Virus record (IMG/VR): IMGVR_UViG_3300029798_000001
DNA from: a virus
Lineage: Duplodnaviria > Caudoviricetes
Direction: 5' to 3' (one strand)
DNA length: 64,000 bases
The first letter of the stretch is position 1. Each line of letters starts with the position of its first letter. Shown piece by piece: positions 4,236-63,564 of the stretch. Below the pieces are notes generated by a model, which saw nothing but the letters and a program-made list of their open reading frames with translations, was not told the DNA's origin and did not search any database. The position numbers and the translations under genes were made by a program.

Positions 4236-5036
4236 ATGACTAACCACTACCAAACTCTCGGCGTTAATCGTGACGCCACCTCGGACGACATTAAACGGGC
4301 TTATCGTCGGCTCGCTAGCCAGCATCATCCTGATAAAGGTGGTGACAAAGTTAAATTCCAAGAATTACAATCAGCATATGCTATATTAAGCGATGATCAA
4401 AAAAGAGCCGAATACGATAACCCAATGAGTAGAAGTAATGGGTTTAATTTTCATACCAATGGCGCTGGCCCGTTTAATTTTGAAAGTATTTTTGATATTT
4501 TTGGCGCCAAATTCCAAAATCCCCATCAGCAACACCATCGTAAGGCACAACATGCCGTAATGACATTATGGATCACCTTACGAGATGTCGCACAAGGCGG
4601 TAATAGAAGTATTAGTGTTGGTACCCACCAAGGCAATATGACAGTGGAAATAGAAATACCCAAGGGTATCAATGACGGCGATAGTATACAATATTCTGGA
4701 ATTGGCCCCGGAGGCATCGATTTAGTAATCACCTATAGAATACACCCAGATCCTAAATGGGCTCGTCAAGGCTCTACCTTACAAACAGAACATACTATAT
4801 CTATTTGGGATTTAATCCTAGGATGTGAGATACCAATAAAAGACATATTGGGTAATAATTTAAGTTTAGCTGTGCCAGCCGGAACACAGCCCGGAACCAC
4901 ACTACGACTACGAGGCCGTGGACTTACTCCTCGTAGCAGTGAAACTGGAGATTTATTGGTTAAGGTACAGGCACAAATCCCTACAGATATCCCACAAGAA
5001 TTATTGGATCATATTACTCAATTCCGCGGTCAATAA
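4236..5036 (+). CDS. Class B J-domain co-chaperone (DnaJ/CbpA-like, no zinc finger)
   Basis: J domain with HPD (HHPDKGGD), G/F-rich linker, DnaJ C-terminal motifs (PAGTQPGTTLRLRGRG, GDLLV). Confidence 0.9.
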   Translation: MTNHYQTLGVNRDATSDDIKRAYRRLASQHHPDKGGDKVKFQELQSAYAILSDDQKRAEYDNPMSRSNGFNFHTNGAGPFNFESIFDIFGAKFQNPHQQHHRKAQHAVMTLWITLRDVAQGGNRSISVGTHQGNMTVEIEIPKGINDGDSIQYSGIGPGGIDLVITYRIHPDPKWARQGSTLQTEHTISIWDLILGCEIPIKDILGNNLSLAVPAGTQPGTTLRLRGRGLTPRSSETGDLLVKVQAQIPTDIPQELLDHITQFRGQ

Positions 5037-5111: not shown

Positions 5112-7388
5112 ATGCAAACTAGTCCAGAAATTGAACAGATACTCGAAAATGCCGTTGGTTTGGCTCGTGAGTACAAACACGAATATGTATTAACCGAACA
5201 TGTGCTACTGGCCTTGATTCGATATAATCCTTTTAGAAAATGCCTAGAAAAATTTGGCACTAATGTTGAGTTGATGGATTCAGAAATATACGCATATCTA
5301 CTCAGTCTAGTTAATTTGGTTACTAATAAAGATGCGCCACCAAAAAAAACTAACGCATTAGAACGCTGTTTTAACCGAGCACTAACACAGGTATTGTTTA
5401 CTGGCCGCCGCCAAGTGGCTACCGCAGATTTATACATGGCCATGATGGCCGAAAACAATAGTCATGCTCATTATTTCCTACTCAAGTACGGAGTTAAAAA
5501 ACAAGAGTTTATGGAATTTTGGCAGGTCCATTATAATCATTCTGATGTTACCTTAAACGATCAACAGGCTACAGAAATACTCACACAGCATTGTTTAGAT
5601 CTTACTAAGTTAGCCAAAGAAGATCGACTAGAACCTATGATTGGTCGTAGTGAAGAACTTGATGAAATGATTACAGTACTAGCACGACGCTTTAAGGCCA
5701 ATGTATTGATGGTTGGTGATCCAGGGGTAGGCAAAACAGCTATCATCGAGGGCCTGGCCCAGGAAATTAATGCAGGACGGGTTCCTGAGTTTTTAAAGGA
5801 TCACGAAGTATGGAGCCTGGAAATTGGTAGCTTGCTCGCCGGTAGTAAGTATCGCGGCGAGTTTGAGGAAAAGTTTAAGGCAGTTATTACAGCTCTGGAA
5901 ACTAAAAAGAAATGTATTTTGTTTATTGACGAAGCACATACAATGATGGGTGCAGGAAGTTCAAGTAACAGCACATTAGACTTTGCAAATATGTTAAAGC
6001 CTGCTATTACCAAAGGTAATTTAAAAGTAGTAGCAAGTACTACCTGGGAAGAATATTATGGATCGTTTGAAAAAGATCGCGCTTTAATGCGTCGCTTCCA
6101 TCGTGTGAGCATTGACGAACCTACTCCAGCAGTAACTGAGCAGATCCTGATTGGACTTAGCCCTAGACTAGAAACATTCCATAATGTATTAATTGATACA
6201 GATGCTATTACAGCAGCCGTGGAGTTAAGTGGCCGCTACATACACGATCGTAAAAATCCAGATAAGAGTATTGATTTGATCGATGGTGCTTGTGCTAAAG
6301 AGCGGGTCAAAGACAAAGGTAATGTTACAGTTAATCGTGATATGATTATGGCGCAGTTAAGTCGTGTAACCAGTGTGCCGTTGGACCGATTGCAAAACGA
6401 ACGCAGTACCAATATTGTTGAGTTAGAAAGTAATATCAAACAAAAGCTCTATGGACAAGATGCCGCAGTTGATGCTGTGCTAGAGCGTGTCTATATTAAC
6501 TTCTCGGGTATTGGTAATCAAAAGCGTCCTATCGCCAGTTATCTATTCCTGGGGCCAACTGGCACAGGTAAAACAGAATTGGCCAAATTGTTAGCAGAAA
6601 ATCTAGATATGAAGTTGCTCAAGTATGATATGAGTGAGTATCAAGAACGGCATACTGTAAGTAGTTTAATCGGAGCACCCCCGGGCTATGTAGGTTTTGA
6701 AGATGGTAATATAGGCGGCGGCAAACTAATATCAGATATTAGTAAAAATCCTTTTAGCATTTTATTATTCGACGAAATCGAAAAGGCACATCCAGATGTA
6801 ATTAACATTATGTTACAAATGTTAGATGAAGCTCGTATCACCAGCAGCAACGGTAAAACCGTGGATCTTAAAAATTGTATCATTATTATGACATCTAATT
6901 TGGGTGCTCGTGATAACGAAAATAATAATATTGGATTTGGACAAAGTTTAGAAAAGACCGGCAGTGAAGACAAGGCTATGAAAGATTTCTTCAAGCCCGA
7001 ACTACGCAATCGTATTGATCAAGTATGTAAGTTTGTTAAACTTGACACCCTGGCAATTAAGAAAGTTGTTATTAAATTTGTAGATGAATTAAAAGCCAGC
7101 TTAGTTGAACGGAACATTCGATTAACTCTAGCCGAGTCAGTCATTGATATGTTAGCCGATAAAGGATATGATAGTAAGATGGGGGCTCGTCCGTTAGGTC
7201 GTAAAATTGACGAGTTAATTCGTGTACCATTGAGTAAACGCATCTTATTTGATCGCTTAGAAAATTGTACAATACATGCCGTTATGAATAATGATCAAGT
7301 TGAGTTTGTTTCGGATGAATCAATCATGCAACCCGGAGTTGATGAAGAAGGATATATAGTACTTGATCAATTTAAACCAACAGTTTAA
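5112..7388 (+). CDS. clpA: ATP-dependent Clp protease ATP-binding subunit ClpA
   Basis: Clp N-domain, two AAA+ modules (GDPGVGKT, GPTGTGKT), ClpP-docking IGF loop (NNIGFG), no ClpB coiled-coil M domain; 758 aa. Confidence 0.9.
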   Translation: MQTSPEIEQILENAVGLAREYKHEYVLTEHVLLALIRYNPFRKCLEKFGTNVELMDSEIYAYLLSLVNLVTNKDAPPKKTNALERCFNRALTQVLFTGRRQVATADLYMAMMAENNSHAHYFLLKYGVKKQEFMEFWQVHYNHSDVTLNDQQATEILTQHCLDLTKLAKEDRLEPMIGRSEELDEMITVLARRFKANVLMVGDPGVGKTAIIEGLAQEINAGRVPEFLKDHEVWSLEIGSLLAGSKYRGEFEEKFKAVITALETKKKCILFIDEAHTMMGAGSSSNSTLDFANMLKPAITKGNLKVVASTTWEEYYGSFEKDRALMRRFHRVSIDEPTPAVTEQILIGLSPRLETFHNVLIDTDAITAAVELSGRYIHDRKNPDKSIDLIDGACAKERVKDKGNVTVNRDMIMAQLSRVTSVPLDRLQNERSTNIVELESNIKQKLYGQDAAVDAVLERVYINFSGIGNQKRPIASYLFLGPTGTGKTELAKLLAENLDMKLLKYDMSEYQERHTVSSLIGAPPGYVGFEDGNIGGGKLISDISKNPFSILLFDEIEKAHPDVINIMLQMLDEARITSSNGKTVDLKNCIIIMTSNLGARDNENNNIGFGQSLEKTGSEDKAMKDFFKPELRNRIDQVCKFVKLDTLAIKKVVIKFVDELKASLVERNIRLTLAESVIDMLADKGYDSKMGARPLGRKIDELIRVPLSKRILFDRLENCTIHAVMNNDQVEFVSDESIMQPGVDEEGYIVLDQFKPTV

Positions 7389-27142: not shown

Positions 27143-29293
27143 ATGAGTTTTGTAGATGCACTTTTTGATCGTGAACACGATCGTATCCATGTAGTTGAGC
27201 GCCGAGACGGTGAGCGGGTATACAAAGAATACCCTGCAAATTTTGTATTCTATTATGAAGACCCTCGTGGCAAGTTTCAAAGTATATTTGGCACACCGGT
27301 AAGTCGTTTTAGCTCACGTAACAATAAAGAATTCCGCAAAGAACTTAGGATACAATCAGGCAAGAAATTATTTGAATCTGATATCAATCCTGTATTTCGG
27401 TGCCTTGAAGAAAACTACAAAGGGCAAGACGGTCCAAAACTTAATGTAGCGTTCTTTGACATTGAGGTGGACTTTGATCCTGAGCGCGGATTTAGCCGCC
27501 CAGAGGATCCATTTAATGCTATCACTGCCATTTCAGTTTACCTACAGTGGTTAGAGCAAATGGTCACCTTGGTAATTCCACCTAAGCATATGAGCAAAGA
27601 AACAGCTCAAGAAATTGCCAACGAGTTTGAAAACACAATCATATTCACTGAAGAAGGAGAACTGTTAAAAACATTCCTAGACTTAATCGAAGATGCAGAT
27701 GCATTGTCGGGTTGGAACTCAGAAGGATTTGATATACCGTACACTGTCAACCGTGTAACTCGTATACTAAGTAAAGATGATACCCGCAGGTTTTGCTTAT
27801 GGAATCAATATCCCAAGAAGCGTACATTTGAACGCTTTGGTGCAGAAAACGAAACTTACGATTTGATTGGTCGTGTACATATGGATTATATGCAATTGTA
27901 TCGAAAATATACATATGAAGAACGCCATAGTTACAGTTTAGATGCCATTGCTGAATATGAACTACAAGAAACTAAAACAGTGTTCGAAGGCACACTGGAT
28001 CAATTATACAATCAAAACTTTAAAACATTTATTGAGTATAATCGACAAGATACAATGATTCTTGCCAAGTTAGATAAGAAACTAAAATTTTTAGATCTAG
28101 CCAACACCTTGGCACATGAAAATACTGTGCTATTGCAAACTACTATGGGTGCCGTGGCTGTGACAGAACAGGCCATTATCAATGAGGCACACGAGCGTAG
28201 TATGGTTGTTCCTAATCGTAAGGAACGCTATTCGGATGAAGATACACAAGCGGCCGGTGCCTATGTTGCTTATCCACGCAAGGGTATACATGAGTATGTA
28301 GGATCAATTGATATTAACTCACTATATCCAAGTGCTATTCGTGCGCTTAATATGGGTCCAGAAACTATTGTGGGGCAACTCCGTCCTACAATGACCGATC
28401 GTTATATTGCCGATAAGATGCGTAGTGGAAGTAGTTTTGCCGCAGCGTGGGAAGGCCTGTTTGGATCATTAGAATATGAAGCTGTAATGGCCAGTGAGCG
28501 CGGCACAGAGATTACAGTAGATTGGCAAGGTGGTGAAGATTCTGTACACAGTGCGGCAGAAGTTTGGAAGATGATTTTTGATTCTAACCAACCATGGATG
28601 CTTAGTGCCAACGGTACAATCTTTACCTATGAAAAAGAAGCAATTATTCCGGGATTGTTAAAACGCTGGTACGCCGAGCGGAAAGAAATGCAGTCCAAAC
28701 TTAAAGAATGTAAAAATGCAGAAGACGAAGAATATTGGGATAAACGACAACTCGTTAAAAAGATTAACCTTAACAGTCTCTATGGTGCTATCCTTAACCC
28801 TGGTTGCCGCTTTTTTGATAAGCGCATTGGACAATCTACCACACTAACCGGTCGTGCTATCGCCAAGCACATGGACGCCTATGTAAATGAATGTATCACT
28901 GGCAAGTATGACCATGTAGGCGAATCAATTATTTACGGTGACAGTGTAACCGGCAATACTCTTATTAAGACTGATTCTGGAGAAATAGCTATTGAAGAAT
29001 TATTTAGACAGACTCCTGAACATTGTATTATTGGTGACAAGGAATATGCTACTGGAGCATTGGCCAAAGTTGTGGGATTTAATGCGTATGAAGATTCTCC
29101 TATAATGAGCAATATATCGTACGTAATGCGACACAAAACAAAAAAGAAACTGTACAAAATTACGCTAGAAAATAATAAGTCAGTCACTGTAACCGAAGAT
29201 CATAGTATAATGGTAGATCGTGACGGATTCCTAATGGAAGTAAAACCCAATGACATCTTGGGTAAAGATTTAATTATCAGTCTGAATACATAA
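27143..29293 (+). CDS. Family B DNA polymerase N-terminal half fused to split-intein N-fragment
   Basis: Exonuclease DIE and YNxxxFD-type motifs, SIDINSLYPS, KINLNSLYG, then IYGD followed by intein SVTG...TEDH; TATAAATA at 27060; RBS AAGGAG. Confidence 0.95.
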   Translation: MSFVDALFDREHDRIHVVERRDGERVYKEYPANFVFYYEDPRGKFQSIFGTPVSRFSSRNNKEFRKELRIQSGKKLFESDINPVFRCLEENYKGQDGPKLNVAFFDIEVDFDPERGFSRPEDPFNAITAISVYLQWLEQMVTLVIPPKHMSKETAQEIANEFENTIIFTEEGELLKTFLDLIEDADALSGWNSEGFDIPYTVNRVTRILSKDDTRRFCLWNQYPKKRTFERFGAENETYDLIGRVHMDYMQLYRKYTYEERHSYSLDAIAEYELQETKTVFEGTLDQLYNQNFKTFIEYNRQDTMILAKLDKKLKFLDLANTLAHENTVLLQTTMGAVAVTEQAIINEAHERSMVVPNRKERYSDEDTQAAGAYVAYPRKGIHEYVGSIDINSLYPSAIRALNMGPETIVGQLRPTMTDRYIADKMRSGSSFAAAWEGLFGSLEYEAVMASERGTEITVDWQGGEDSVHSAAEVWKMIFDSNQPWMLSANGTIFTYEKEAIIPGLLKRWYAERKEMQSKLKECKNAEDEEYWDKRQLVKKINLNSLYGAILNPGCRFFDKRIGQSTTLTGRAIAKHMDAYVNECITGKYDHVGESIIYGDSVTGNTLIKTDSGEIAIEELFRQTPEHCIIGDKEYATGALAKVVGFNAYEDSPIMSNISYVMRHKTKKKLYKITLENNKSVTVTEDHSIMVDRDGFLMEVKPNDILGKDLIISLNT
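28943..29293 (+). mobile_element. Split intein N-fragment (116 aa, Ser1)
   Basis: Starts after YGD with SVTGNTLI; block B VTEDHS; ends at a stop codon. Confidence 0.9.
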
Positions 29294-29320
29294 ATACTAT
29301 GAAGATAGGAGTATCATCAT

Positions 29321-30280
29321 ATGCCAACATGTTTAGAGTGCGGGTATTCAGCCCCAAGATTACAGTGGACACACTTCAAATACAAATGTACCGGAAAATT
29401 CAAAAACGGTAATGAGTATATGTCCGCACACCCCGGTAGTGAGATAATAGATCCAGAATTAAAGAAAAAATACGGGTTTACACTTGACTCGGCTGTCAAA
29501 AAGTATGGTGCTGTGGAAGGTCAAAAACGATGGAATGAGTATTGTGATGCGCAGGCAACCACTAATACTTTTGAATACAAACATGAAAAATACGGTTGGA
29601 CCCGTGAACAGTTTGACGAGTACAATTCATCAAGAGCAGTAACCATTGCAAACATGATCAAACGACATGGTGAAGAAATTGGAGTTGCTAAATGGCAAGA
29701 ATATTGCGAACGACAAGGATATACCAATACCAAAGAATATTTTATTGAAAAGTACGGTGCAATCATTGGCGTTAAAAAATATATTGAGGTTAACAAGAAA
29801 AAGAAAAACCCACACGACCCGGTGAGTATTTCTGAAAAATTAGGAATTACCTTGGACGAGGCGGTAGACATTATCTTGTCGAGAGAAAATTCTGGAAGAA
29901 GATATATTAGTAATCTTGAAGAAGAATTTACAAACATGCTTGAAGATAAAGTAGGACCACTTGACTATACCTCAGCTAAACGACCATTTGGCAAATGGTC
30001 TCATTTATTGAATACCTATGTTGTATATGATATAAAACACGGCAATTGCATTATTGAATTCAATGGTGATTACTGGCATGCTAATCCCAACATTTATGCT
30101 GGCACCGCTACAATAAGAGGTGTCCCGGCGGTTGATATATGGCGCCAGAATGTGTTAAAATTACAAACAGCACAGGATTTGGAATTCAAAACCCTAGTGG
30201 TTTGGGAAACAGAATTTCGAAATGATAAAGTTGGAACAATTAATAAGGTAGCAGAATGGATATTACAAGAACAACCGTAA
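29321..30280 (+). mobile_element. Free-standing Vsr-like/PD-(D/E)xK homing endonuclease between the polymerase halves
   Basis: N-terminal CxxC...H zinc finger, repeated KYG..G..(R/K)W.EY units, C-terminal IEFNGDYWH and VVWE; TAAATA at 29291; RBS AGGAG. Confidence 0.85.
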
Positions 30281-30381
30281 AAAGTATTGATTGTCTCGGT
30301 GAGGTGGATGACTATGTGTATGATCTCAGTATAGAAGATCAAGATCCTTATTTTTTTGCCAATGACATATTGGTGCATAAT
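30256..30381 (+). mobile_element. Split intein C-fragment (42 aa, ends HN, +1 = Thr)
   Basis: Block F VYDLSI and block G HN. Confidence 0.9.
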
Positions 30382-31239
30382 ACCGACTCGTGTTATTTCA
30401 CTGCATACCCTGTGTTGCAAAAAGAAATCGAAGCTGGTACAATGTCTTGGTCGAAAGAAATTGCGGTACAATTATATAACTCTATTGCCGACCAAGTTAA
30501 TGATAGCTTTCCAGGATTTATGGAACAAGCATTTCATGTACCTAGAGAAATGGGCGAAGTGATCAAAGGTGGGCGAGAGATTGTCGCAAGTAAAGGGCTG
30601 TTTATTACCAAGAAGCGGTATGCTGTATTGTATTATGATAAAGAAAATAAGCGTGTAGATACCCACGGTAGTCCTGGTAAAGTAAAAGCCATGGGCCTTG
30701 ATTTAAAAAGATCAGATACTCCCAAGGTTATTCAAGAATTTTTAAGCGAGATTCTCGACGAGGTACTCACAGGCTCCACCAGAGATCAGGTTATTGAAAA
30801 GATCCGCGAATTTAAGTATATTTTTAAAGAGAGGCCGGGTTGGGAGAAGGGTAGTCCTAAGCGTGTAAACAACTTAACCAAATATGGTAAGGAAGAAGAA
30901 AGATTAGGCAAAGCCAATATGCCAGGACATGTCCGTGCTGCACTTAATTGGAATAATCTTCGCAGGATGAATGGCGACAAATATAGTTTACAGATTGTTG
31001 ATGGCATGAAAACAATTGTATGTAAACTAAAATCTAATCCACTTGGCTGGACTAGCATTGGTTACCCTACTGACGAAACACATTTGCCACAATGGTTTAA
31101 AGAGTTGCCGTTTGATGACACCGAAATGGAAGCCACTGTAGTTGATCAAAAGCTAGACAATTTATTAAGTGTATTAGAATGGGACTTGGCCAGTGCTACT
31201 AACACTAAAAATATTTTTCAAACATTGTTCGAGTGGTAA
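30256..31239 (+). CDS. Split-intein C-fragment fused to DNA polymerase B C-terminal half
   Basis: VYDLSI...ILVHN then TDS completes YGDTDS; KKRYA motif downstream. Confidence 0.95.
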   Translation: MDITRTTVKSIDCLGEVDDYVYDLSIEDQDPYFFANDILVHNTDSCYFTAYPVLQKEIEAGTMSWSKEIAVQLYNSIADQVNDSFPGFMEQAFHVPREMGEVIKGGREIVASKGLFITKKRYAVLYYDKENKRVDTHGSPGKVKAMGLDLKRSDTPKVIQEFLSEILDEVLTGSTRDQVIEKIREFKYIFKERPGWEKGSPKRVNNLTKYGKEEERLGKANMPGHVRAALNWNNLRRMNGDKYSLQIVDGMKTIVCKLKSNPLGWTSIGYPTDETHLPQWFKELPFDDTEMEATVVDQKLDNLLSVLEWDLASATNTKNIFQTLFEW

Positions 31240-59233: not shown

Positions 59234-59311
59234 GGGCGGTTAGCATAGTAGGTTAATGCCGGCGACTCATAATCGTCAGAGTGATAGGTTCAAATCCTTC
59301 ACCGCCCACCA
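59234..59311 (+). tRNA. tRNA with CAT anticodon (elongator Met or lysidine Ile2)
   Basis: GGGCGGT/ACCGCCC acceptor stem, GCAT/ATGC D-stem, anticodon loop CTCATAA, TTCAAAT T-loop, encoded CCA; G1:C72 excludes the initiator. Confidence 0.9.
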
Positions 59312-59618: not shown

Positions 59619-59822
59619 ATGGCATTTGGTAAAGTAAAATGGTTTAACGACGCAAAAGGTTTTGGTTTTATTACCCCCGATGGTGGTGGTGAAGATTTGT
59701 TTGCACATTTCTCAGCAATCGGTGGAAGTGGATTTAAAACTCTTAAAGAGAATCAAGCGGTACAGTTTGATGTAACGCAAGGCCCAAAAGGCAAACAAGC
59801 ATCGAATATTATACCTGCGTAA
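59619..59822 (+). CDS. cspA: Cold-shock protein
   Basis: [15 protein letters not shown] (RNP1) and LFAHFSAI (RNP2). Confidence 0.97.
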
Positions 59823-59919
59823 GCTGGTACTAACAGAATTGTTGTAACGTGGGCGCAGGGGTTAAATCCTGCGGACCATTTAGGTTGATTTTTAATTCGT
59901 TTTCTGCTACAATAGTAGT

Positions 59920-60531
59920 ATGAGAGTAAAGAATTTTGAGGTCGATTTAGATTCTGTAGAAGATTGCCAAAAGCTAATTAATCGACTTAAAAGTAATATA
60001 GGCGAACTTCGAATATTAACACACGGCTCTAAAAAGCAAAGAGTCCGTTCTGTATTTGAAGCTTGTCAAAAGATATACAATACCGATATCAGCGACTTGT
60101 ATCGTCATTTAGATTTGGATCCAAACCCGATTTATTATGTCTATACACATTCGGAACCTTCTAAAAAGATTGCTATAGGCAAAAACGGTATCAGTACTTT
60201 TGCGGCGACATTAGGAATGGAGTTAATTCCGTTCTATGTAGGCAAGGGTGTTGGCGATAGAGCTTACGATTTAAACCGCAACGAGACGCATCGTAAAGTA
60301 AGACAAAAACTTCAGCAGTTCGGGCAGGAAGTATCTGTTAAAATATTAAAATCTGGACTTACTGAGATGGGAGCATTAATATTAGAATCTAAATTAATCG
60401 ATATGTTCGGACTAATAGCTTCGGGCGGTAAATTAGTAAATTTGGACGAAGGTGTAAATAGTAAAGAACGACGCTTAAAATATAAAGACGAGCTTCGTGA
60501 GATAAGTATGTTATATAAGAATTCTGTCTGA
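59920..60531 (+). mobile_element. GIY-YIG nuclease adjacent to the tmRNA gene
   Basis: YYVY...PFYVGKG.G.RA...ALILE..LI...LVN; promoter TTGATT-17-TACAAT at 59885-59913. Confidence 0.75.
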
Positions 60532-60870
60532 AGTTAGACTGAAAGCTATGCAAGACGCGGAGTGGTGCCCGCCACCTCCACCACAAGCATACTGTGATGC
60601 GTTACCCAGCGTGAAGTTAAGAGGGTGAAAACAGTATGCTTTTGATGGGGGTGTATAATCCTTTCGATTGTGTAGGAAGTAAGAATAATTAGGAATCGGT
60701 AGGCGATGACCGTATAAATCAAGCAAATCTCGTAAATGCAAACGCAAATACAGGCGAAGTAACTGTTTCGGGCAAGGGCGTTAAGTTCTCTGCTCGTACA
60801 GCGAAAGCCGAATCTTTCGCAGTTTAATCACCGCGATTGCGGAGTTATCCGTAGAAACAGAAAATAACAG
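60520..60870 (+). ncRNA. ssrA: Circularly permuted two-piece tmRNA (outer ends approximate)
   Basis: Acceptor piece ...GACGCGG-AGTGGTGC-CCGC-CACCTCC-A-CCA (to 60583) precedes the coding piece GGGGGTG (60647); G3.U70 pair; CTATGCAA/TTGTGTAG helix; resume context TAAAT|GCAAAC; tag ORF 60738-60827. Confidence 0.85.
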
Positions 60871-60896
60871 ATAGGGGCTTCGGCCCCTATTCTTTT
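60871..60896 (+). terminator. Intrinsic terminator after the tmRNA
   Basis: ATAGGGGC-TTCG-GCCCCTAT followed by TCTTTT. Confidence 0.85.
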
Positions 60897-60983: not shown

Positions 60984-61322
60984 ATGAAATTAATCACAGC
61001 AGTAATCAAGCCCTTTAAACTAGACGAAGTTCGAGAAGGTCTAGCCGAGGTTGGCATCACTGGGTTAACTGTAACAGAAGTCAAAGGCGTTGGGCGGCAA
61101 AAAGGCCATACCGAGTTGTATCGCGGTGCTGAGTATGTAGTAGATTTTTTACCCAAGGTTAAAGTCGAAGCAATCGTTGAGGAGGGCTTAGTTGATCGTG
61201 CTATTGAGGCCATTATCAAATCTTCCAAGACCGGTAAAATTGGTGACGGTAAGATTTGGGTTACCGCAATTGAAGGCCTGGTTCGTATTCGTACAGGTGA
61301 ATCTGGAAAGGATGCAGTATAA
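60984..61322 (+). CDS. glnK: P-II nitrogen regulatory protein
   Basis: 112 aa; KPFKLDEV, RQKGHTELYRGAEY (Tyr51), TGKIGDGKI and RIRTGE; directly upstream of amtB. Confidence 0.97.
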   Translation: MKLITAVIKPFKLDEVREGLAEVGITGLTVTEVKGVGRQKGHTELYRGAEYVVDFLPKVKVEAIVEEGLVDRAIEAIIKSSKTGKIGDGKIWVTAIEGLVRIRTGESGKDAV

Positions 61323-62698
61323 TGAAAAAATTACTAACAGCATTAGCATTGTTCGCAGTATCGGCAGTGGCATTGGCCGCAGATGCTCCGGTGCCTAACC
61401 CGGGTAATACCGCTTGGGTATTGACTAGTACAATCTTAGTAACACTCATGGCTATTCCAGGCCTTGCATTGTTCTATGGTGGACTAGTTCGTAGTAAAAA
61501 TATGTTGAGTGTGCTCATGCAGACCTTTGTAGTATTTGCTCTCATGGGTGTTCTTTGGACGGTGTTTGGTTACACACTAGCATTTACAGCAGGTACACCA
61601 TTTATTGGTAGTATTGACAAGTTGTTCTTGTTGGGTATTACTCCGGACTCTGTAGCGGCAACATTTAGTAAAGGTGTTGTTATTCCTGAGTTTAGTTTTG
61701 TAGCCTTTCAACTTACCTTTGCCGCAATCACTCCGGCACTGATTATTGGTGCGTTTGCCGAGCGTGTTAAGTTTGGCGCCTTGTTGGCATTTATTACCAT
61801 TTGGTTTATCTTTGCTTACTTGCCCATGGCACACATGGTTTGGTATTGGGACGGCCCTGATGCTATTACCAGTGCCGCCACATTAGAAGCAGTCACTAAT
61901 TCAGCAGGCTGGTTGTGGGCCAAGGGTGCTTTAGACTTTGCCGGAGGTACAGTAGTTCATATCAATGCTGGTATTGCTGGCTTGGTTGGTGCTATCATGT
62001 TAGGCCGTCGTGTTGGTCTTGGTAAAGAAAATATGAGTCCACACTCATTGACACTTACTATGGTTGGTGCCGCATTGTTGTGGGTAGGTTGGTTTGGCTT
62101 CAACGCTGGATCTAATCTCGAAGCCACAGGTGTTGCTGCTCTTGCAGTTGTAAACACAATGGTTGCCACAGCAATGGCTGTATTAAGTTGGTCTGGAGTT
62201 GAGAAGTTGTTCAAAGGTAAAGCAAGTATGTTAGGGGCCGCATCTGGTGCTGTAGCAGGCTTGGTTGCGATTACTCCTGCTGCTGGTTTTGTAGGACCGA
62301 TTGGTGCGTTAGTAATTGGGTTGGTTGTTAGTCCGATTTGTTTTTTCTTTGTTGACAAAGTTAAACGCACATTTGGGTACGATGACGCACTTGATGTATT
62401 TGGTATTCACGGTGTAGGTGGTATTGTTGGTGCTATCCTCACTGGAGTGTTTGTTGCTCCATACCTAGGTGGTACTGGTGTATACGACTATGTGGCCAAC
62501 AAGGTAGCAGACTTCGATATGGTGGCTCAACTTACAGCTCAATTATGGGCAGTGGGTACAGCCGTAGTGTTAAGCGGTGTAGTATCCGTAGTAGCATTCA
62601 AGTTAATTGACCTAGTCATTGGCCTGCGTGTTCCAGAAGAAGATGAACGAGAAGGGTTGGACATCACTTCACACGGTGAAACAGCGTATCACAATTAA
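61322..62698 (+). CDS. amtB: Ammonium transporter
   Basis: Signal peptide; FQLTFA, HMVW, DFAGGTVVH, WFGFNAGS, DVFGIHG and EREGLD...HGE. Confidence 0.97.
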   Translation: MKKLLTALALFAVSAVALAADAPVPNPGNTAWVLTSTILVTLMAIPGLALFYGGLVRSKNMLSVLMQTFVVFALMGVLWTVFGYTLAFTAGTPFIGSIDKLFLLGITPDSVAATFSKGVVIPEFSFVAFQLTFAAITPALIIGAFAERVKFGALLAFITIWFIFAYLPMAHMVWYWDGPDAITSAATLEAVTNSAGWLWAKGALDFAGGTVVHINAGIAGLVGAIMLGRRVGLGKENMSPHSLTLTMVGAALLWVGWFGFNAGSNLEATGVAALAVVNTMVATAMAVLSWSGVEKLFKGKASMLGAASGAVAGLVAITPAAGFVGPIGALVIGLVVSPICFFFVDKVKRTFGYDDALDVFGIHGVGGIVGAILTGVFVAPYLGGTGVYDYVANKVADFDMVAQLTAQLWAVGTAVVLSGVVSVVAFKLIDLVIGLRVPEEDEREGLDITSHGETAYHN

Positions 62699-62711
62699 AG
62701 TAGTCGTTAAT

Positions 62712-62745
62712 GATAAAAAGGTGGCATTTCTGCCACCTTTTTATC
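62712..62745. terminator. Bidirectional terminator-like hairpin
   Basis: 15-bp perfect stem GATAAAAAGGTGGCA-TTTC-TGCCACCTTTTTATC. Confidence 0.85.
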
Positions 62746-62820
62746 GTGGGTCAGTAAAAACCACTAAATATTATTCACGGGACATATATCTATGCCCTAT
62801 CTTAAAAGGAAATAAATCAA

Positions 62821-63564
62821 ATGAAAAAAGTACTATTAGCAATTCTTGCTCTGGCTGGCATTACCGCGGCTCACGCTCAGGTAACTGGCAATTTAGGGTT
62901 AGCTTCTGACTACCGCTTCCGTGGTATCAGTCAAAGCCAAAATGCTCCTGCTGTTCAGGGCGGCGTTGACTATGCTCACTCTAGTGGTTTGTATATTGGT
63001 AACTGGAACTCATCAGTTTCTAGCCAAGTATATACAAATGGCGCTGGTGTTGAGTCTGACTTGTACGCAGGTTGGAAAAAAGATATTTACAAAGGTCTGA
63101 CATTGGATGTTGGTTCTTATAACTATTTCTATCCTCGTGCTACAGCAGCAAAAACTGGTTCAAACTTTGATACTTATGAAGCATTCTTAGGTTTAGGGTA
63201 TGGTCCTTTAGCTGTTAAGTATAGCCAAACACTGGGCAACGGTTACTTCGGTACTGTTAATGCCAAAAACTCAAACTACACAGGTGCTGATGTAAATCAA
63301 TCCTTTGAGCCACTAAGTGATACGTTGAAAGACTTGAGCTTCCTAGCTCACTATGGTCATACTTCGGTTGCTAATAGTTCTAACTTAAACTACAACGACA
63401 TGAATGTTGGTCTAGGTTATGTATTGCCAAAAGATTGGAATATTGCTGCCAGGTACTATACTAATAGTTCAATGACCAGCACTTTCCAAAATGCTAACAA
63501 TGTAAATGGACAGAAACTTTACAAAAATGCAGTTGTCGCAACATTGACAAAAACATTTGAATAA
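62821..63564 (+). CDS. TorF-family (TIGR02001-like) outer-membrane porin
   Basis: Signal peptide, SDYRFRGISQS...PAVQGGVDY, GNWNSSV, ESDLYAG and terminal TKTF; TAAATA at 62765. Confidence 0.85.
   Translation: MKKVLLAILALAGITAAHAQVTGNLGLASDYRFRGISQSQNAPAVQGGVDYAHSSGLYIGNWNSSVSSQVYTNGAGVESDLYAGWKKDIYKGLTLDVGSYNYFYPRATAAKTGSNFDTYEAFLGLGYGPLAVKYSQTLGNGYFGTVNAKNSNYTGADVNQSFEPLSDTLKDLSFLAHYGHTSVANSSNLNYNDMNVGLGYVLPKDWNIAARYYTNSSMTSTFQNANNVNGQKLYKNAVVATLTKTFE

What the first reader, a model, noticed from the sequence alone, without database searches (positions are those of the whole stretch)
60520..60870. Circularly permuted two-piece tmRNA in a phage
Seen: the acceptor piece (CCA at 60581-60583) precedes the coding piece (G1 at 60647). 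The 63-nt intervening segment closes with an 11-bp perfect stem (AAGCATACTGT/ACAGTATGCTT). G3.U70 is present, and the T-loop is non-canonical (AGTGGTGC rather than TTCRA). Established: permuted tmRNAs occur in Alphaproteobacteria, some cyanobacteria and some Betaproteobacteria, and the alpha type has a GGCRGUA-like T-loop. A phage-borne permuted form is unusual and informs host range and the origin of the permutation.
Basis: partly seen in the sequence, partly recalled or inferred. Interest (0 to 1): 0.75.

Follow-up and report, generated by a model that had tools for sequence, protein, structure and literature searches.

The report
Mosaic two-piece tmRNA in lake phage
This uncultured lake jumbo phage carries a real split ("two-piece") ribosome-rescue RNA gene, a kind of phage cargo already known, but its tRNA-like half has an unusual elbow and appears to have been swapped in as a cassette together with a neighbouring nuclease gene.

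Summary
Window 60516-60896 (+) is a circularly permuted tmRNA gene (Rfam RF04321, 60.7 bits against a cut-off of 47). It has a G3.U70 acceptor stem, an encoded ACCA end, a 63-nt spacer with an 11-bp stem, a 29-codon tag (ANANTGEVTVSGKGVKFSARTAKAESFAV), a covarying post-tag hairpin and a terminator.

Phage-borne permuted tmRNAs are not unusual. A 2022 survey listed 53 forms, this scan has met many on other DNA, and one metagenome scan here returned 120 or more lake-phage relatives. Most relatives tested pass the beta-lineage model, so the permutation was inherited rather than newly arisen.

Three things are particular to this window.
- Its elbow lacks both the T-loop UUC and the D-loop GG (GUGGUG with AAUCC). 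ARAGORN and all three lineage models miss it.
- The gene is a mosaic. Positions 59824-60698, which hold a GIY-YIG-like ORF plus the tRNA-like half, form a near-identical cassette. It is absent from syntenic relatives, which have canonical tmRNAs.
- GIY-YIG genes sit beside tmRNAs with non-canonical T-loops far more often than beside canonical ones (8 of 12 against 1 of 52).

Homing-endonuclease-driven module exchange, as with T4 SegB, is my inference and is not shown. Expression and processing remain untested.

The parts
59824..60698 (+). Replaced cassette, made up of the ORF203 promoter region, ORF203, the acceptor piece, the spacer, the 5' acceptor strand, the D-loop and P2.
   Evidence: Homology to L071, L150, L111 and L147 stops at about 59810-59823 (the end of csp) and resumes at 60697-60699 in all four comparisons. 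Among the window and its 4 close relatives, about 59850-60727 is nearly invariant, while 15-40% of flanking columns vary.
59920..60531 (+). ORF203, a GIY-YIG-like nuclease gene. Its last codons overlap the 5' start of the tmRNA.
   Evidence: It has the motif IYYVY...FYVGKGxGxR...H...E...N, with Y75, Y106, R114, H124, E156 and N174 invariant in 28 homologues. The Pfam match to PF22945 is weak (E 0.039). The profile matches the PDB GIY-YIG entry 9u75 (E 0.07). The AlphaFold2 model has pLDDT 89.6 and its top Foldseek hits are all GIY-YIG enzymes, at weak E-values.
60516..60583 (+). Acceptor piece. It holds the P2-outer strand AUUCU (60521-25), a local hairpin (60526-39), the P2a strand UAUGCAA (60547-53), GAC, the T-arm (60557-72), the 3' acceptor strand (60573-79) and ACCA (60580-83).
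   Evidence: Rfam alignment. The family's 5' boundary AAAGAAUU is conserved over unrelated upstream DNA. P2a covaries across the family.
60557..60572 (+). Non-canonical T-arm. It has 4 G-C pairs plus an A.C mismatch and a GUGGUG loop of 6 nt, with no U54, U55 or C56 equivalents.
   Evidence: Direct reading. The same loop occurs with perfect, compensated stems in L218 (GCGGG/CCCGC) and L304 (CCGGG/CCCGG).
60584..60646 (+). Intervening segment, presumed to be excised. Its closing stem is 60586-96 / 60632-42, and UUUUGAU is the leader before G1.
   Evidence: Direct reading. The fold recovers the stem. The AAGCAUA...UAUGCUUUUGAU ends recur in relatives with spacers of 18-171 nt.
60647..60737 (+). 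5' part of the coding piece. It holds the 5' acceptor strand (60647-53), a D-loop analogue UAUAAUCCUUUCGA with no G before UCGA (60654-67), the P2a strand UUGUGUA (60668-74), the P2-outer strand GGAAU (60692-96), the PK1 hairpin (60697-60712) and the resume context.
60738..60827 (+). Tag reading frame. It runs from the GCA resume codon to TAA and encodes ANANTGEVTVSGKGVKFSARTAKAESFAV.
   Evidence: The frame is kept in relatives, including an in-frame 3-nt deletion. ARAGORN independently calls the same frame in L111 and L150. Purifying selection is weak: pN/pS is 0.72, against 0.88 and 1.16 in the other two frames.
60838..60853 (+). Post-tag hairpin UGCGGA-GUUA-UCCGUA.
   Evidence: Pair count on alignment A2: 3 of 6 pairs show compensatory changes.
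60871..60896 (+). Intrinsic terminator. The stem is 60871-78 / 60883-90 with a UUCG loop and a U-run. It marks the 3' end of the coding piece.
   Evidence: Terminator scan. 7 of 8 pairs show compensatory changes and 99.4% of cells are paired. The beta_tmRNA model also ends in this hairpin.

Best explanation
The stretch is a genuine two-piece (circularly permuted) tmRNA gene of an uncultured freshwater jumbo phage. It belongs to a large family of such genes in lake T4-like and jumbo phages.

Inferred mechanism, following the textbook two-piece pathway:
1. A precursor is probably co-transcribed with the upstream ORF from a promoter-like site at 59885-59913 and ends at the terminator at 60871-96.
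2. RNase P cuts before G60647, and tRNA 3' processing exposes CCA at 60583. The 63-nt spacer hairpin is discarded.
3. The two pieces stay paired through the acceptor stem and P2.
4. Alanyl-tRNA synthetase charges the RNA through G3.U70 and A73.
5. With SmpB, it enters stalled ribosomes. Translation resumes at GCA 60738 and adds a 29-residue tag ending in Ala-Val.

The gene is a mosaic. The message half, from the PK1 hairpin onward, is the local ancestral module and is 88-96% identical to relatives. The tRNA-like half arrived with the GIY-YIG-like ORF as an ~875-bp cassette (59824-60698). That half has an elbow in which T-loop UUC and D-loop GG are replaced by GUGGUG and AAUCC.

I infer that the ORF is a Seg-type homing endonuclease that spreads the cassette. 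What is shown: gene identity, anatomy, mosaic boundaries, and the association with GIY-YIG genes. What is inferred: processing, charging, tagging and homing.
For: - RF04321 matches at 60.7 bits, above its cut-off of 47.
- Direct reading gives a 7-bp acceptor stem with G3.U70, ACCA, and the UCGA and GAC motifs.
- P2a covaries across the family (CUG/CAG, GUG/CAU, GCG/CGU, CAA/UUG), and the window keeps 7 pairs.
- A P2-outer helix and an acceptor-piece hairpin are kept with different letters.
- In the 3' module, 93.9% of cells are paired and 10 of 14 pairs are compensatory. None of 500 shuffles reaches that.
- The tag frame is conserved, and ARAGORN calls the same frame in relatives.
- Family members with the same tag class pass beta_tmRNA at 110-115 bits.
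- The same GUGGUG/AAUCC elbow occurs in L218 and L304 with compensated T-stems and acceptor stems and ordinary ...LAA tags.
- The mosaic breakpoints are the same in four comparisons, and the block is near-identical.
- Syntenic relatives L111, L147 and L168 lack the ORF and have canonical tmRNAs.
- ORF homologues lie next to a permuted tmRNA in 15 of 22 IMG/VR loci and in 8 of 8 other loci.
- Pfam-confirmed Seg-type GIY-YIG genes occupy the same spot in L071, L105 and L182.
- An adjacent GIY-YIG gene accompanies non-canonical T-loops in 8 of 12 loci, against 1 of 52 canonical ones.
- T4 SegB is a precedent. Its recognition site centres on the TpsiC stem-loop DNA, and it drives co-inheritance of flanking tRNA genes (PMC2330249).
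Against: - There is no evidence of transcription, processing or charging for this gene.
- It scores lowest of the family members scanned with the generic model and fails all three lineage models. Beta gives 38.5 bits against a cut-off of 84, barely above the 34.5-bit maximum that other genomes' best matches reached in 151 sampled genomes.
- The window's clade has an A.C mismatch in the T-stem that L218 and L304 lack.
- The excised spacer is as invariant as the functional parts, so the invariance reflects recent sharing rather than RNA constraint.
- No promoter-like site lies directly upstream of the acceptor piece, so the 5' end needs an unshown cleavage.
- Selection on the tag frame is weak.
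- The GIY-YIG assignment of the ORF rests on weak scores (E 0.04-0.09).
- ORF-linked tmRNAs include canonical T-loops (L301, L302, L231, L240), and in L303 the ORF is translationally overlapped with smpB. Both fit a functional partner as well as a selfish gene.
Confidence: 0.75

Rival explanations
1. The tRNA-like half is a damaged passenger. The cassette was dragged in by gene conversion, the altered elbow no longer works in trans-translation, and the RNA is inert. At most it acts as a decoy that soaks up SmpB, like the TLD-only RNA of mycobacteriophage DS6A.
For: - It has the lowest model score in the family and fails ARAGORN and the lineage models.
- Both elbow partners have lost their conserved letters.
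- The T-stem has an A.C mismatch, found in this elbow class only in the window's clade.
- The invariance is explained by recent sharing rather than by selection.
- The inhibitory TLD-only DS6A RNA is on record (PMC4131195).
Against: - All helices (P1, P2a, P2-outer, T-stem) are kept. Between the window, L218 and L304 they differ by compensatory changes while the GUGGUG and AAUCC loops stay fixed.
- L218 and L304 join this elbow to ordinary ...LAA degradation tags.
- G3.U70, A73-CCA, UCGA and GAC are intact.
- The tag frame stays open in every relative.
Confidence: 0.12
2. ORF203 is not a selfish homing endonuclease. It is a working partner of the tmRNA, for example a nuclease that makes the 5' end of the acceptor piece or a cofactor adapted to the odd elbow. 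The pair is inherited together because it functions together.
For: - Adjacency is kept down to 47% protein identity.
- The ORF's C-terminal codons always overlap the tmRNA's 5' start.
- In L303, smpB, the ORF and the tmRNA form one tight array with overlapping stop and start codons.
- The window has no separate promoter-like site for the tmRNA.
Against: - Most family tmRNAs lack the ORF and have their own sigma70-like promoter.
- Presence and absence vary between close syntenic relatives.
- An unrelated, Pfam-confirmed Seg-type GIY-YIG gene fills the same position in other members.
- In IMG/VR loci the ORF can lie upstream of the tmRNA or divergent from it.
- The cassette has sharp, shared breakpoints.
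Confidence: 0.25
3. The permutation arose independently in this phage lineage, making it a fourth permuted lineage, as its failure on the alpha, beta and cyano models might suggest.
For: Only the generic model passes. Beta gives 38.5 bits and alpha and cyano score lower.
Against: - The message half is 88-96% identical to relatives that pass beta_tmRNA at 110-115 bits.
- The spacer ends, PK1 hairpin, resume context and terminal hairpin align with the beta model.
- A graded series of relatives connects the window to standard beta-type members.
Confidence: 0.03

Closest known systems
Phage-encoded two-piece tmRNAs of aquatic T4-like myophages (Methylophilales phage Melnitz, pelagimyophages; Buchholz et al. 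2022, PMC9004378)
   Same: It is a permuted ssrA carried by a large aquatic phage in a region rich in tRNA and auxiliary genes. The same functions are proposed, namely keeping ribosomes running during takeover.
   Different: Melnitz's gene is alpha-type and sits under a glutamine riboswitch. This one sits in a beta-type family, has a non-canonical elbow that ARAGORN misses, carries a 29-residue tag ending in Ala-Val, and is a recombinant linked to a nuclease gene.
Betaproteobacterial two-piece tmRNA (Rfam RF01850; Sharkady and Williams 2004)
   Same: The gene order, the spacer start CAAG..CAU, the PK1 hairpin AGGCGA, the UAAAUGC.AAC resume context and the terminal terminator hairpin all align. 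Close relatives pass this model.
   Different: The window itself scores 38.5 bits against a cut-off of 84. P2, the D-loop (UGG becomes UCC) and the T-loop differ, and the tag is about three times longer and does not end in Ala-Ala.
Alphaproteobacterial two-piece tmRNA (Rfam RF01849), with its GGCRGUR T-loop
   Same: The T-loop is non-TpsiC. The T-stem and flanks are almost letter for letter those of the alpha-type phage tmRNA L024. The CAAGAC/CGAUUG form of P2a is shared with family members that pass the alpha model.
   Different: The loop is one base shorter and lacks the C of GGC. The D-loop lacks the AGG that genuine alpha types keep. The score is below the alpha cut-off.
T4 SegB, a free-standing GIY-YIG homing endonuclease in the tRNA gene cluster (Brok-Volchanskaya et al. 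2008, PMC2330249)
   Same: It is a GIY-YIG-type gene embedded among tRNA-like genes of a T4-related phage. It is present or absent between relatives, and flanking RNA-gene sequence is co-inherited. SegB's recognition site centres on TpsiC stem-loop DNA, which is the very part altered here.
   Different: ORF203 is not a sequence relative of SegB. Its GIY-YIG domain is central rather than N-terminal and has a long insert between the GIY and YIG motifs. No cleavage or homing has been shown, and the partner is a tmRNA rather than tRNAs.

Membership tests
Two-piece (permuted) tmRNA, Rfam RF04321 | The covariance-model score reaches the gathering score. | tested here: met
   60.7 bits against 47, full model 1-213.
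Two-piece (permuted) tmRNA, Rfam RF04321 | Permuted order: the T-arm, 3' acceptor strand and CCA lie upstream of the 5' acceptor strand, with a spacer between them. | tested here: met
   ACCA is at 60580-83, G1 is at 60647, and the spacer is 63 nt.
Two-piece (permuted) tmRNA, Rfam RF04321 | Alanine identity: G3.U70 in a 7-bp acceptor stem, with A73. | tested here: met
   GGGGGUG pairs with CACCUCC, followed by A60580.
Two-piece (permuted) tmRNA, Rfam RF04321 | A T-arm with a T-loop (UUCRA, or GGCRGUR in alpha types) and a D-loop GG for the elbow contact. | tested here: not met
   The loop is GUGGUG (6 nt), the stem is 4 bp plus an A.C mismatch, and the D-loop UAUAAUCC has no G. The same variant recurs in L218 and L304.
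Two-piece (permuted) tmRNA, Rfam RF04321 | A P2 helix joins the acceptor piece to the coding piece. | tested here: met
   P2a is 60547-53 with 60668-74 (7 bp) and covaries across the family. P2-outer is 60521-25 with 60692-96.
Two-piece (permuted) tmRNA, Rfam RF04321 | Pseudoknot PK1 lies upstream of the resume codon. | tested here: inconclusive
   The hairpin at 60697-60712 is present and family-wide. The second stem could be drawn only with a 2-nt bulge, and the columns never vary (direct reading).
Two-piece (permuted) tmRNA, Rfam RF04321 | A tag reading frame with an Ala resume codon and an in-frame stop, conserved in relatives. | tested here: met
   GCA is at 60738 and TAA at 60825-27. The frame is kept, including an in-frame deletion. 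ARAGORN calls the same frame in L111 and L150.
Two-piece (permuted) tmRNA, Rfam RF04321 | The tag ends in a hydrophobic ...(L/V/I)AA degradation signal. | tested here: not met
   It ends in ...SFAV. 21 of 102 unique family tags end in AV, all of them in the window-like class.
Two-piece (permuted) tmRNA, Rfam RF04321 | Processing into two pieces, alanylation, SmpB binding and tagging. | not testable with these tools
   RNA-library contigs matched only relatives' tmRNAs.
beta_tmRNA lineage (RF01850) | The lineage model score reaches 84 bits. | tested here: not met
   38.5 bits. Relatives with the same message half score 110-115 bits.
alpha_tmRNA lineage (RF01849) | The lineage model score reaches 50 bits. 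| tested here: not met
   It scored below the beta match and was dropped by clan competition.
GIY-YIG nuclease superfamily (ORF203) | The catalytic set is present: Tyr of GIY, Tyr of YIG, Arg, His/Tyr, Glu and Asn. | tested here: met
   Y75, Y106, R114, H124, E156 and N174 are invariant in 28 homologues.
GIY-YIG nuclease superfamily (ORF203) | A significant profile or fold match. | tested here: inconclusive
   Pfam PF22945 gives 14.4 bits against 27. The PDB profile gives E 0.07. The top Foldseek hits are all GIY-YIG enzymes, but at E 0.09-0.5.
Free-standing homing endonuclease (Seg-type behaviour) | Presence/absence polymorphism at one locus, with co-converted flanks. | tested here: met
   Filled and empty sites between csp and the tmRNA, shared breakpoints and a near-identical block.
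Free-standing homing endonuclease (Seg-type behaviour) | Site-specific cleavage of ORF-less alleles and biased inheritance. | not testable with these tools
   This needs purified protein and phage crosses.

The most novel reading that the evidence does not exclude
GIY-YIG homing endonucleases of at least two unrelated families target phage tmRNA genes around the conserved TpsiC and acceptor DNA, as T4 SegB does with tRNA genes. On this reading, the window's odd elbow is a cleavage-immune allele. It stays functional through a reciprocal swap of the elbow contact: D-loop GG with T-loop UC becomes D-loop CC with T-loop GG. Homing then shuffles tRNA-like halves and tag-encoding halves of tmRNA as separate modules among lake phages, which also spreads non-standard tags such as ...FAV.
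Probability: 0.3. Interest if true: 0.7.

Novelty: new variant of a known kind. Interest (0 to 1): 0.5.

Why it matters
Phage tmRNAs are usually found with ARAGORN and read as host markers. Both habits fail here. ARAGORN missed all 11 members with non-canonical T-loops, and the gene is a recombinant whose two halves have different histories.

A natural tmRNA class that has lost both conserved elbow partners yet keeps every helix is a ready-made test of what the T-loop/D-loop contact contributes to SmpB binding and ribosome entry.

If the neighbouring nuclease is a homing enzyme, this would extend the SegB principle from tRNA to tmRNA genes. It would also explain how tag modules, including ones lacking the Ala-Ala degradation signal, move between phages.

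The basic fact, a two-piece tmRNA in a phage, is already known in print and has been found repeatedly by this scan.

Tried and rejected
- **ARAGORN on the window:** it found no tmRNA. This is explained by its blindness to non-canonical T-loops.
- **Expression and processing:** two run searches and one read-laying gave only lake metatranscriptome contigs. They match 60697-60802 at 90-95% and then run on into unlike sequence, so they come from relatives' tmRNAs. There is no verdict for this gene.
- **Bacterial source of the T-arm:** the pattern GAGTGGTGCC-N6-CTCCACCA hit 17 species-representative genomes, all coding-sequence coincidences without a T-stem.
- **Bacterial beta-type references:** none were obtained. 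In a class-level sample, 0 of 151 genomes passed RF01850. The sample included one unpublished genome, G042, and nothing here rests on it. The search served only to calibrate background scores (34.5 bits at most).
- **Leader-tail helix:** UGUUAU (60509-14) with AUAACA (60866-71), suggested by the MFE fold, is rejected. It lies outside the family's conserved 5' boundary and is not shared by the family.
- **PK1 second stem:** not resolved.
- **SmpB:** not found among 10 SmpB-sized or neighbouring window ORFs, nor in three viral records, two of them incomplete and only one (10% complete) from this phage's relatives. This gives no conclusion for this phage.
- **Tag frame selection:** pN/pS is only weakly below the other two frames.
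- **Wider search for the GUGGUG T-arm in IMG/VR:** it returned only the window's own clade.
- **blastn of the tmRNA against cultured phages:** only terminator-like scraps matched. A canonical family member weakly matched the annotated tmRNAs of Stenotrophomonas phages and XacN1.
- **GIY-YIG regex:** my first regex missed two Pfam-confirmed cases, so I replaced it with tblastn.
Full report
**Observation.**
- ACCA is at 60580-83 and the 3' acceptor strand CACCUCC at 60573-79.
- The 5' strand GGGGGUG is at 60647-53, giving seven pairs with G3.U70 and A73.
- The intervening segment is 63 nt, with a perfect 11-bp stem at 60586-96 / 60632-42.
- The T-arm is GCGG-A-GUGGUG-C-CCGC, without the UUCRA motif.

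Rfam's generic permuted-tmRNA model RF04321 matches 60520-60827 at 60.7 bits (gathering score 47). ARAGORN reports only a tRNA-Met at 59234-59311.

**Context.** Nearly all ORFs in the window are on the + strand and tightly packed.
- It encodes an intein-split family-B DNA polymerase about 51% identical to those of jumbo phages PA5oct, Phosso and Atu_ph07.
- It also encodes a full-length ClpA-like ATPase next to a DnaJ, a cold-shock protein, and glnK-amtB just downstream of the tmRNA.
- No whole genome is held.
- The DNA occurs in freshwater and lake metagenomes of 14 studies.
- Earlier notes of this scan describe the same genome as an uncultured freshwater jumbo phage related to T4.

**What is already known.**
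- Buchholz et al. 2022 (PMC9004378) described the two-piece tmRNA of phage Melnitz. Among 402 tmRNA-bearing phage genomes they counted 53 unique two-piece forms, 50 of them aquatic.
- The 2025 tmRNA database lists 79 phage tmRNAs and is the source of RF04321 (PMC11915505).
- Huge phages with tmRNA and SmpB were reported in 2020, found with ARAGORN (PMC7162821).
- This scan has met phage two-piece tmRNAs many times on other DNA. Examples include cyanophage tags ending in valine and protein genes inside the excised spacer.

So a phage-borne permuted tmRNA is not unusual in itself.

**Relatives.** Four IMG/VR contigs carry the same element at 92-96% identity.
- I could parse a clear permuted order in 83 of 125 sequences, with spacers of 18-171 nt.
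- All contigs whose flanks I annotated are phage. They carry gp32, PhoH, a CobS-like ATPase, ribonucleotide reductase and tail genes.
- Tags fall into three classes:
  - short ANDxxxALAA tags;
  - long tags of 22-34 residues ending in (L/I/M)AA;
  - the window's class, A(N/K)A(N/S)TGEVTVSGK...(F/L)AV.
- 21 of 102 unique tags end in AV, all in the window-like class.

**Lineage.** Of 20 representative members, 15 pass the beta-lineage model at 95-170 bits. These include L111 and L150, which carry the window's own tag class (115 and 110 bits). Members with a GGCAGUG T-loop pass the alpha model instead (L064 88, L182 87, L071 54.6 bits).

The window is the outlier. It scores 38.5 bits on beta (cut-off 84), with alpha and cyano lower. 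That is barely above the 34.5-bit maximum among best matches in 151 sampled genomes, none of which passed the cut-off. The beta model nevertheless aligns end to end. It shares the spacer start, the PK1 hairpin, the resume context and the terminal hairpin. The permutation is therefore inherited, not a fourth independent event.

**Anatomy and support.**
- *P2a* (60547-53 with 60668-74) covaries across the family: CUG/CAG, GUG/CAU, GCG/CGU and CAA/UUG. The window has seven pairs.
- *P2-outer* abuts the PK1 hairpin. It is AUUCU/GGAAU in the window and UGUUGU/GCAACA in most relatives. A local hairpin in the acceptor piece is likewise kept with different letters.
- *The 5' boundary* of the family is a conserved AAAGAAUU start lying over unrelated upstream DNA.
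- *The 3' module*, which the Rfam model does not cover, was tested by a pair count on 20 sequences. 93.9% of cells are paired and 10 of 14 pairs have compensatory changes. No shuffle of 500 reaches this, and sliding the partner columns collapses the signal.
- *The tag frame* is kept in relatives, including an in-frame 3-nt deletion. ARAGORN independently calls the same frame in L111 and L150. Purifying selection on it is weak.

**The elbow.**
- Canonical family members pair a UUCGA-type T-loop with a D-loop containing GG.
- Genuine alpha types pair GGCRGUR with AGG. L183 has GGCGGUA.
- The window has GUGGUG, one base short and with no C56 equivalent. Its D-loop is UAUAAUCC, with no G.

The same pair of loops occurs in L218/L219 and L304. 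There the T-stems (GCGGG/CCCGC, CCGGG/CCCGG) and acceptor stems (GGGCCGG, GGGCCUG) differ from the window's by compensatory changes, and the tags are ordinary (ANASNDEVYSLAA, ANDSTFALAA). That is the pattern of a constrained, working variant. The reciprocal change (GG with UC becoming CC with GG) suggests a swapped tertiary pair, which is inference. ARAGORN found 62 of 68 canonical members and none of the 11 non-canonical ones.

**Mosaic.** Taken segment by segment:
- The window's tag is 96% identical to L150's.
- Its post-tag region is 95% identical to L071's.
- Its acceptor piece and TLD/P2 segment have no relative above 77% outside its own clade.

Among the five close contigs, about 59850-60727 is nearly invariant while 15-40% of flanking columns vary. 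This block includes the excised spacer and the whole upstream ORF, so it reflects recent sharing rather than RNA constraint alone. Against L071, L150, L111 and L147, homology ends at the end of csp (about 59810-59823) and resumes at 60697-60699, the start of the PK1 hairpin.

Across the family, csp lies upstream of the tmRNA, abutting it in many members. Syntenic relatives L111, L147 and L168 lack the ORF and carry canonical tmRNAs with the same tag class.

**The ORF (59920-60531).**
- It carries a GIY-YIG-like signature whose catalytic positions are invariant in 28 homologues.
- It has weak Pfam and PDB-profile matches to GIY-YIG proteins.
- A confident AlphaFold2 model (pLDDT 89.6) has top Foldseek hits that are all GIY-YIG enzymes, at weak E-values.
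- Homologues at 47-68% identity lie beside a permuted tmRNA in 15 of 22 IMG/VR loci. The tmRNA is downstream in 12, upstream in L238, and divergent in L232 and L236. None of 58 domain-only matches has one. All 8 loci fetched by exact protein look-up have one too.
- In L303 the ORF is overlapped by smpB.

Independently, L071, L105 and L182 have Pfam-confirmed Seg-type GIY-YIG genes in the same position. An adjacent GIY-YIG gene accompanies 8 of 12 loci with non-canonical T-loops against 1 of 52 canonical ones (Fisher p about 1e-6). Counting the window's clade once gives 4 of 8 lineages. The rule is not absolute. L301, L302, L231 and L240 have canonical T-loops next to an ORF203-family gene, and L069 and L134 next to a Seg-type one.

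T4 SegB is a published parallel. It is a GIY-YIG homing endonuclease whose site centres on TpsiC stem-loop DNA and which carries flanking tRNA genes with it (PMC2330249). I found no paper on such genes beside phage tmRNAs in the library searched.

**Verdict.** This is a real two-piece tmRNA gene of a known kind, in a phage. It has a rare elbow variant and a recombinant structure linked to a probable homing nuclease. Expression, processing, charging, tagging and nuclease activity are all untested. The only RNA data I could lay belonged to relatives.

Noticed in passing
L111 and L101 (spacer between CCA and G1; sequences printed): The excised intervening segments of some relatives contain small ORFs with hydrophobic products: about 23 codons in L111 and about 39 in L101. 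This agrees with earlier scan notes of protein genes inside phage tmRNA spacers.
   Followed up: partly
L303:779-1812: In one relative, an SmpB gene (PF01668) overlaps the start of the ORF203 homologue and a permuted tmRNA follows, forming a compact smpB-ORF-ssrA array in a phage-like contig.
   Followed up: partly
window 5112-7388 and 4236-5036: There is a full-length ClpA-like ATPase (TIGR02639 best hit at 800 bits, below the equivalog cut-off) directly after a DnaJ gene. Together with a tag that lacks the Ala-Ala end, this raises the untested idea of a phage-specific degradation route.
   Followed up: partly
window 60984-63564: glnK (P-II), amtB (ammonium transporter) and a Gcw_chp outer-membrane-type gene lie directly downstream of the tmRNA. 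Only L026, L071 and L068 share glnK there, so it is variable cargo.
   Followed up: partly
window 27143-31239: The family-B DNA polymerase is split by an intein (Intein_splicing halves at the end of 27143-29293 and the start of 30256-31239), with a separate ORF (29321-30280) between them.
   Followed up: no
L002:10069-10156 and L031:4831-4918: Two viral contigs carry an 88-nt match to the standard tmRNA model (68 bits) inside a tRNA array. It looks like a TLD-only mini-tmRNA of the kind known from mycobacteriophage DS6A.
   Followed up: no
L090 / L154 and L069: Seg-adjacent family tmRNAs whose acceptor piece ends ACC-G or ACC-U instead of ACCA, so the terminal A would have to be added after transcription. 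L090 and L154 also have an imperfect T-stem.
   Followed up: no
L064, L181, L182: tmRNAs that lack the ORF203-type gene have a near-consensus sigma70-type promoter (TTGACA, 17 nt, TATAAT) placed just before the conserved 5' start (L182 has a Seg-type gene upstream of it). The window has none there and probably relies on the promoter-like site before ORF203 (59885-59913).
   Followed up: partly
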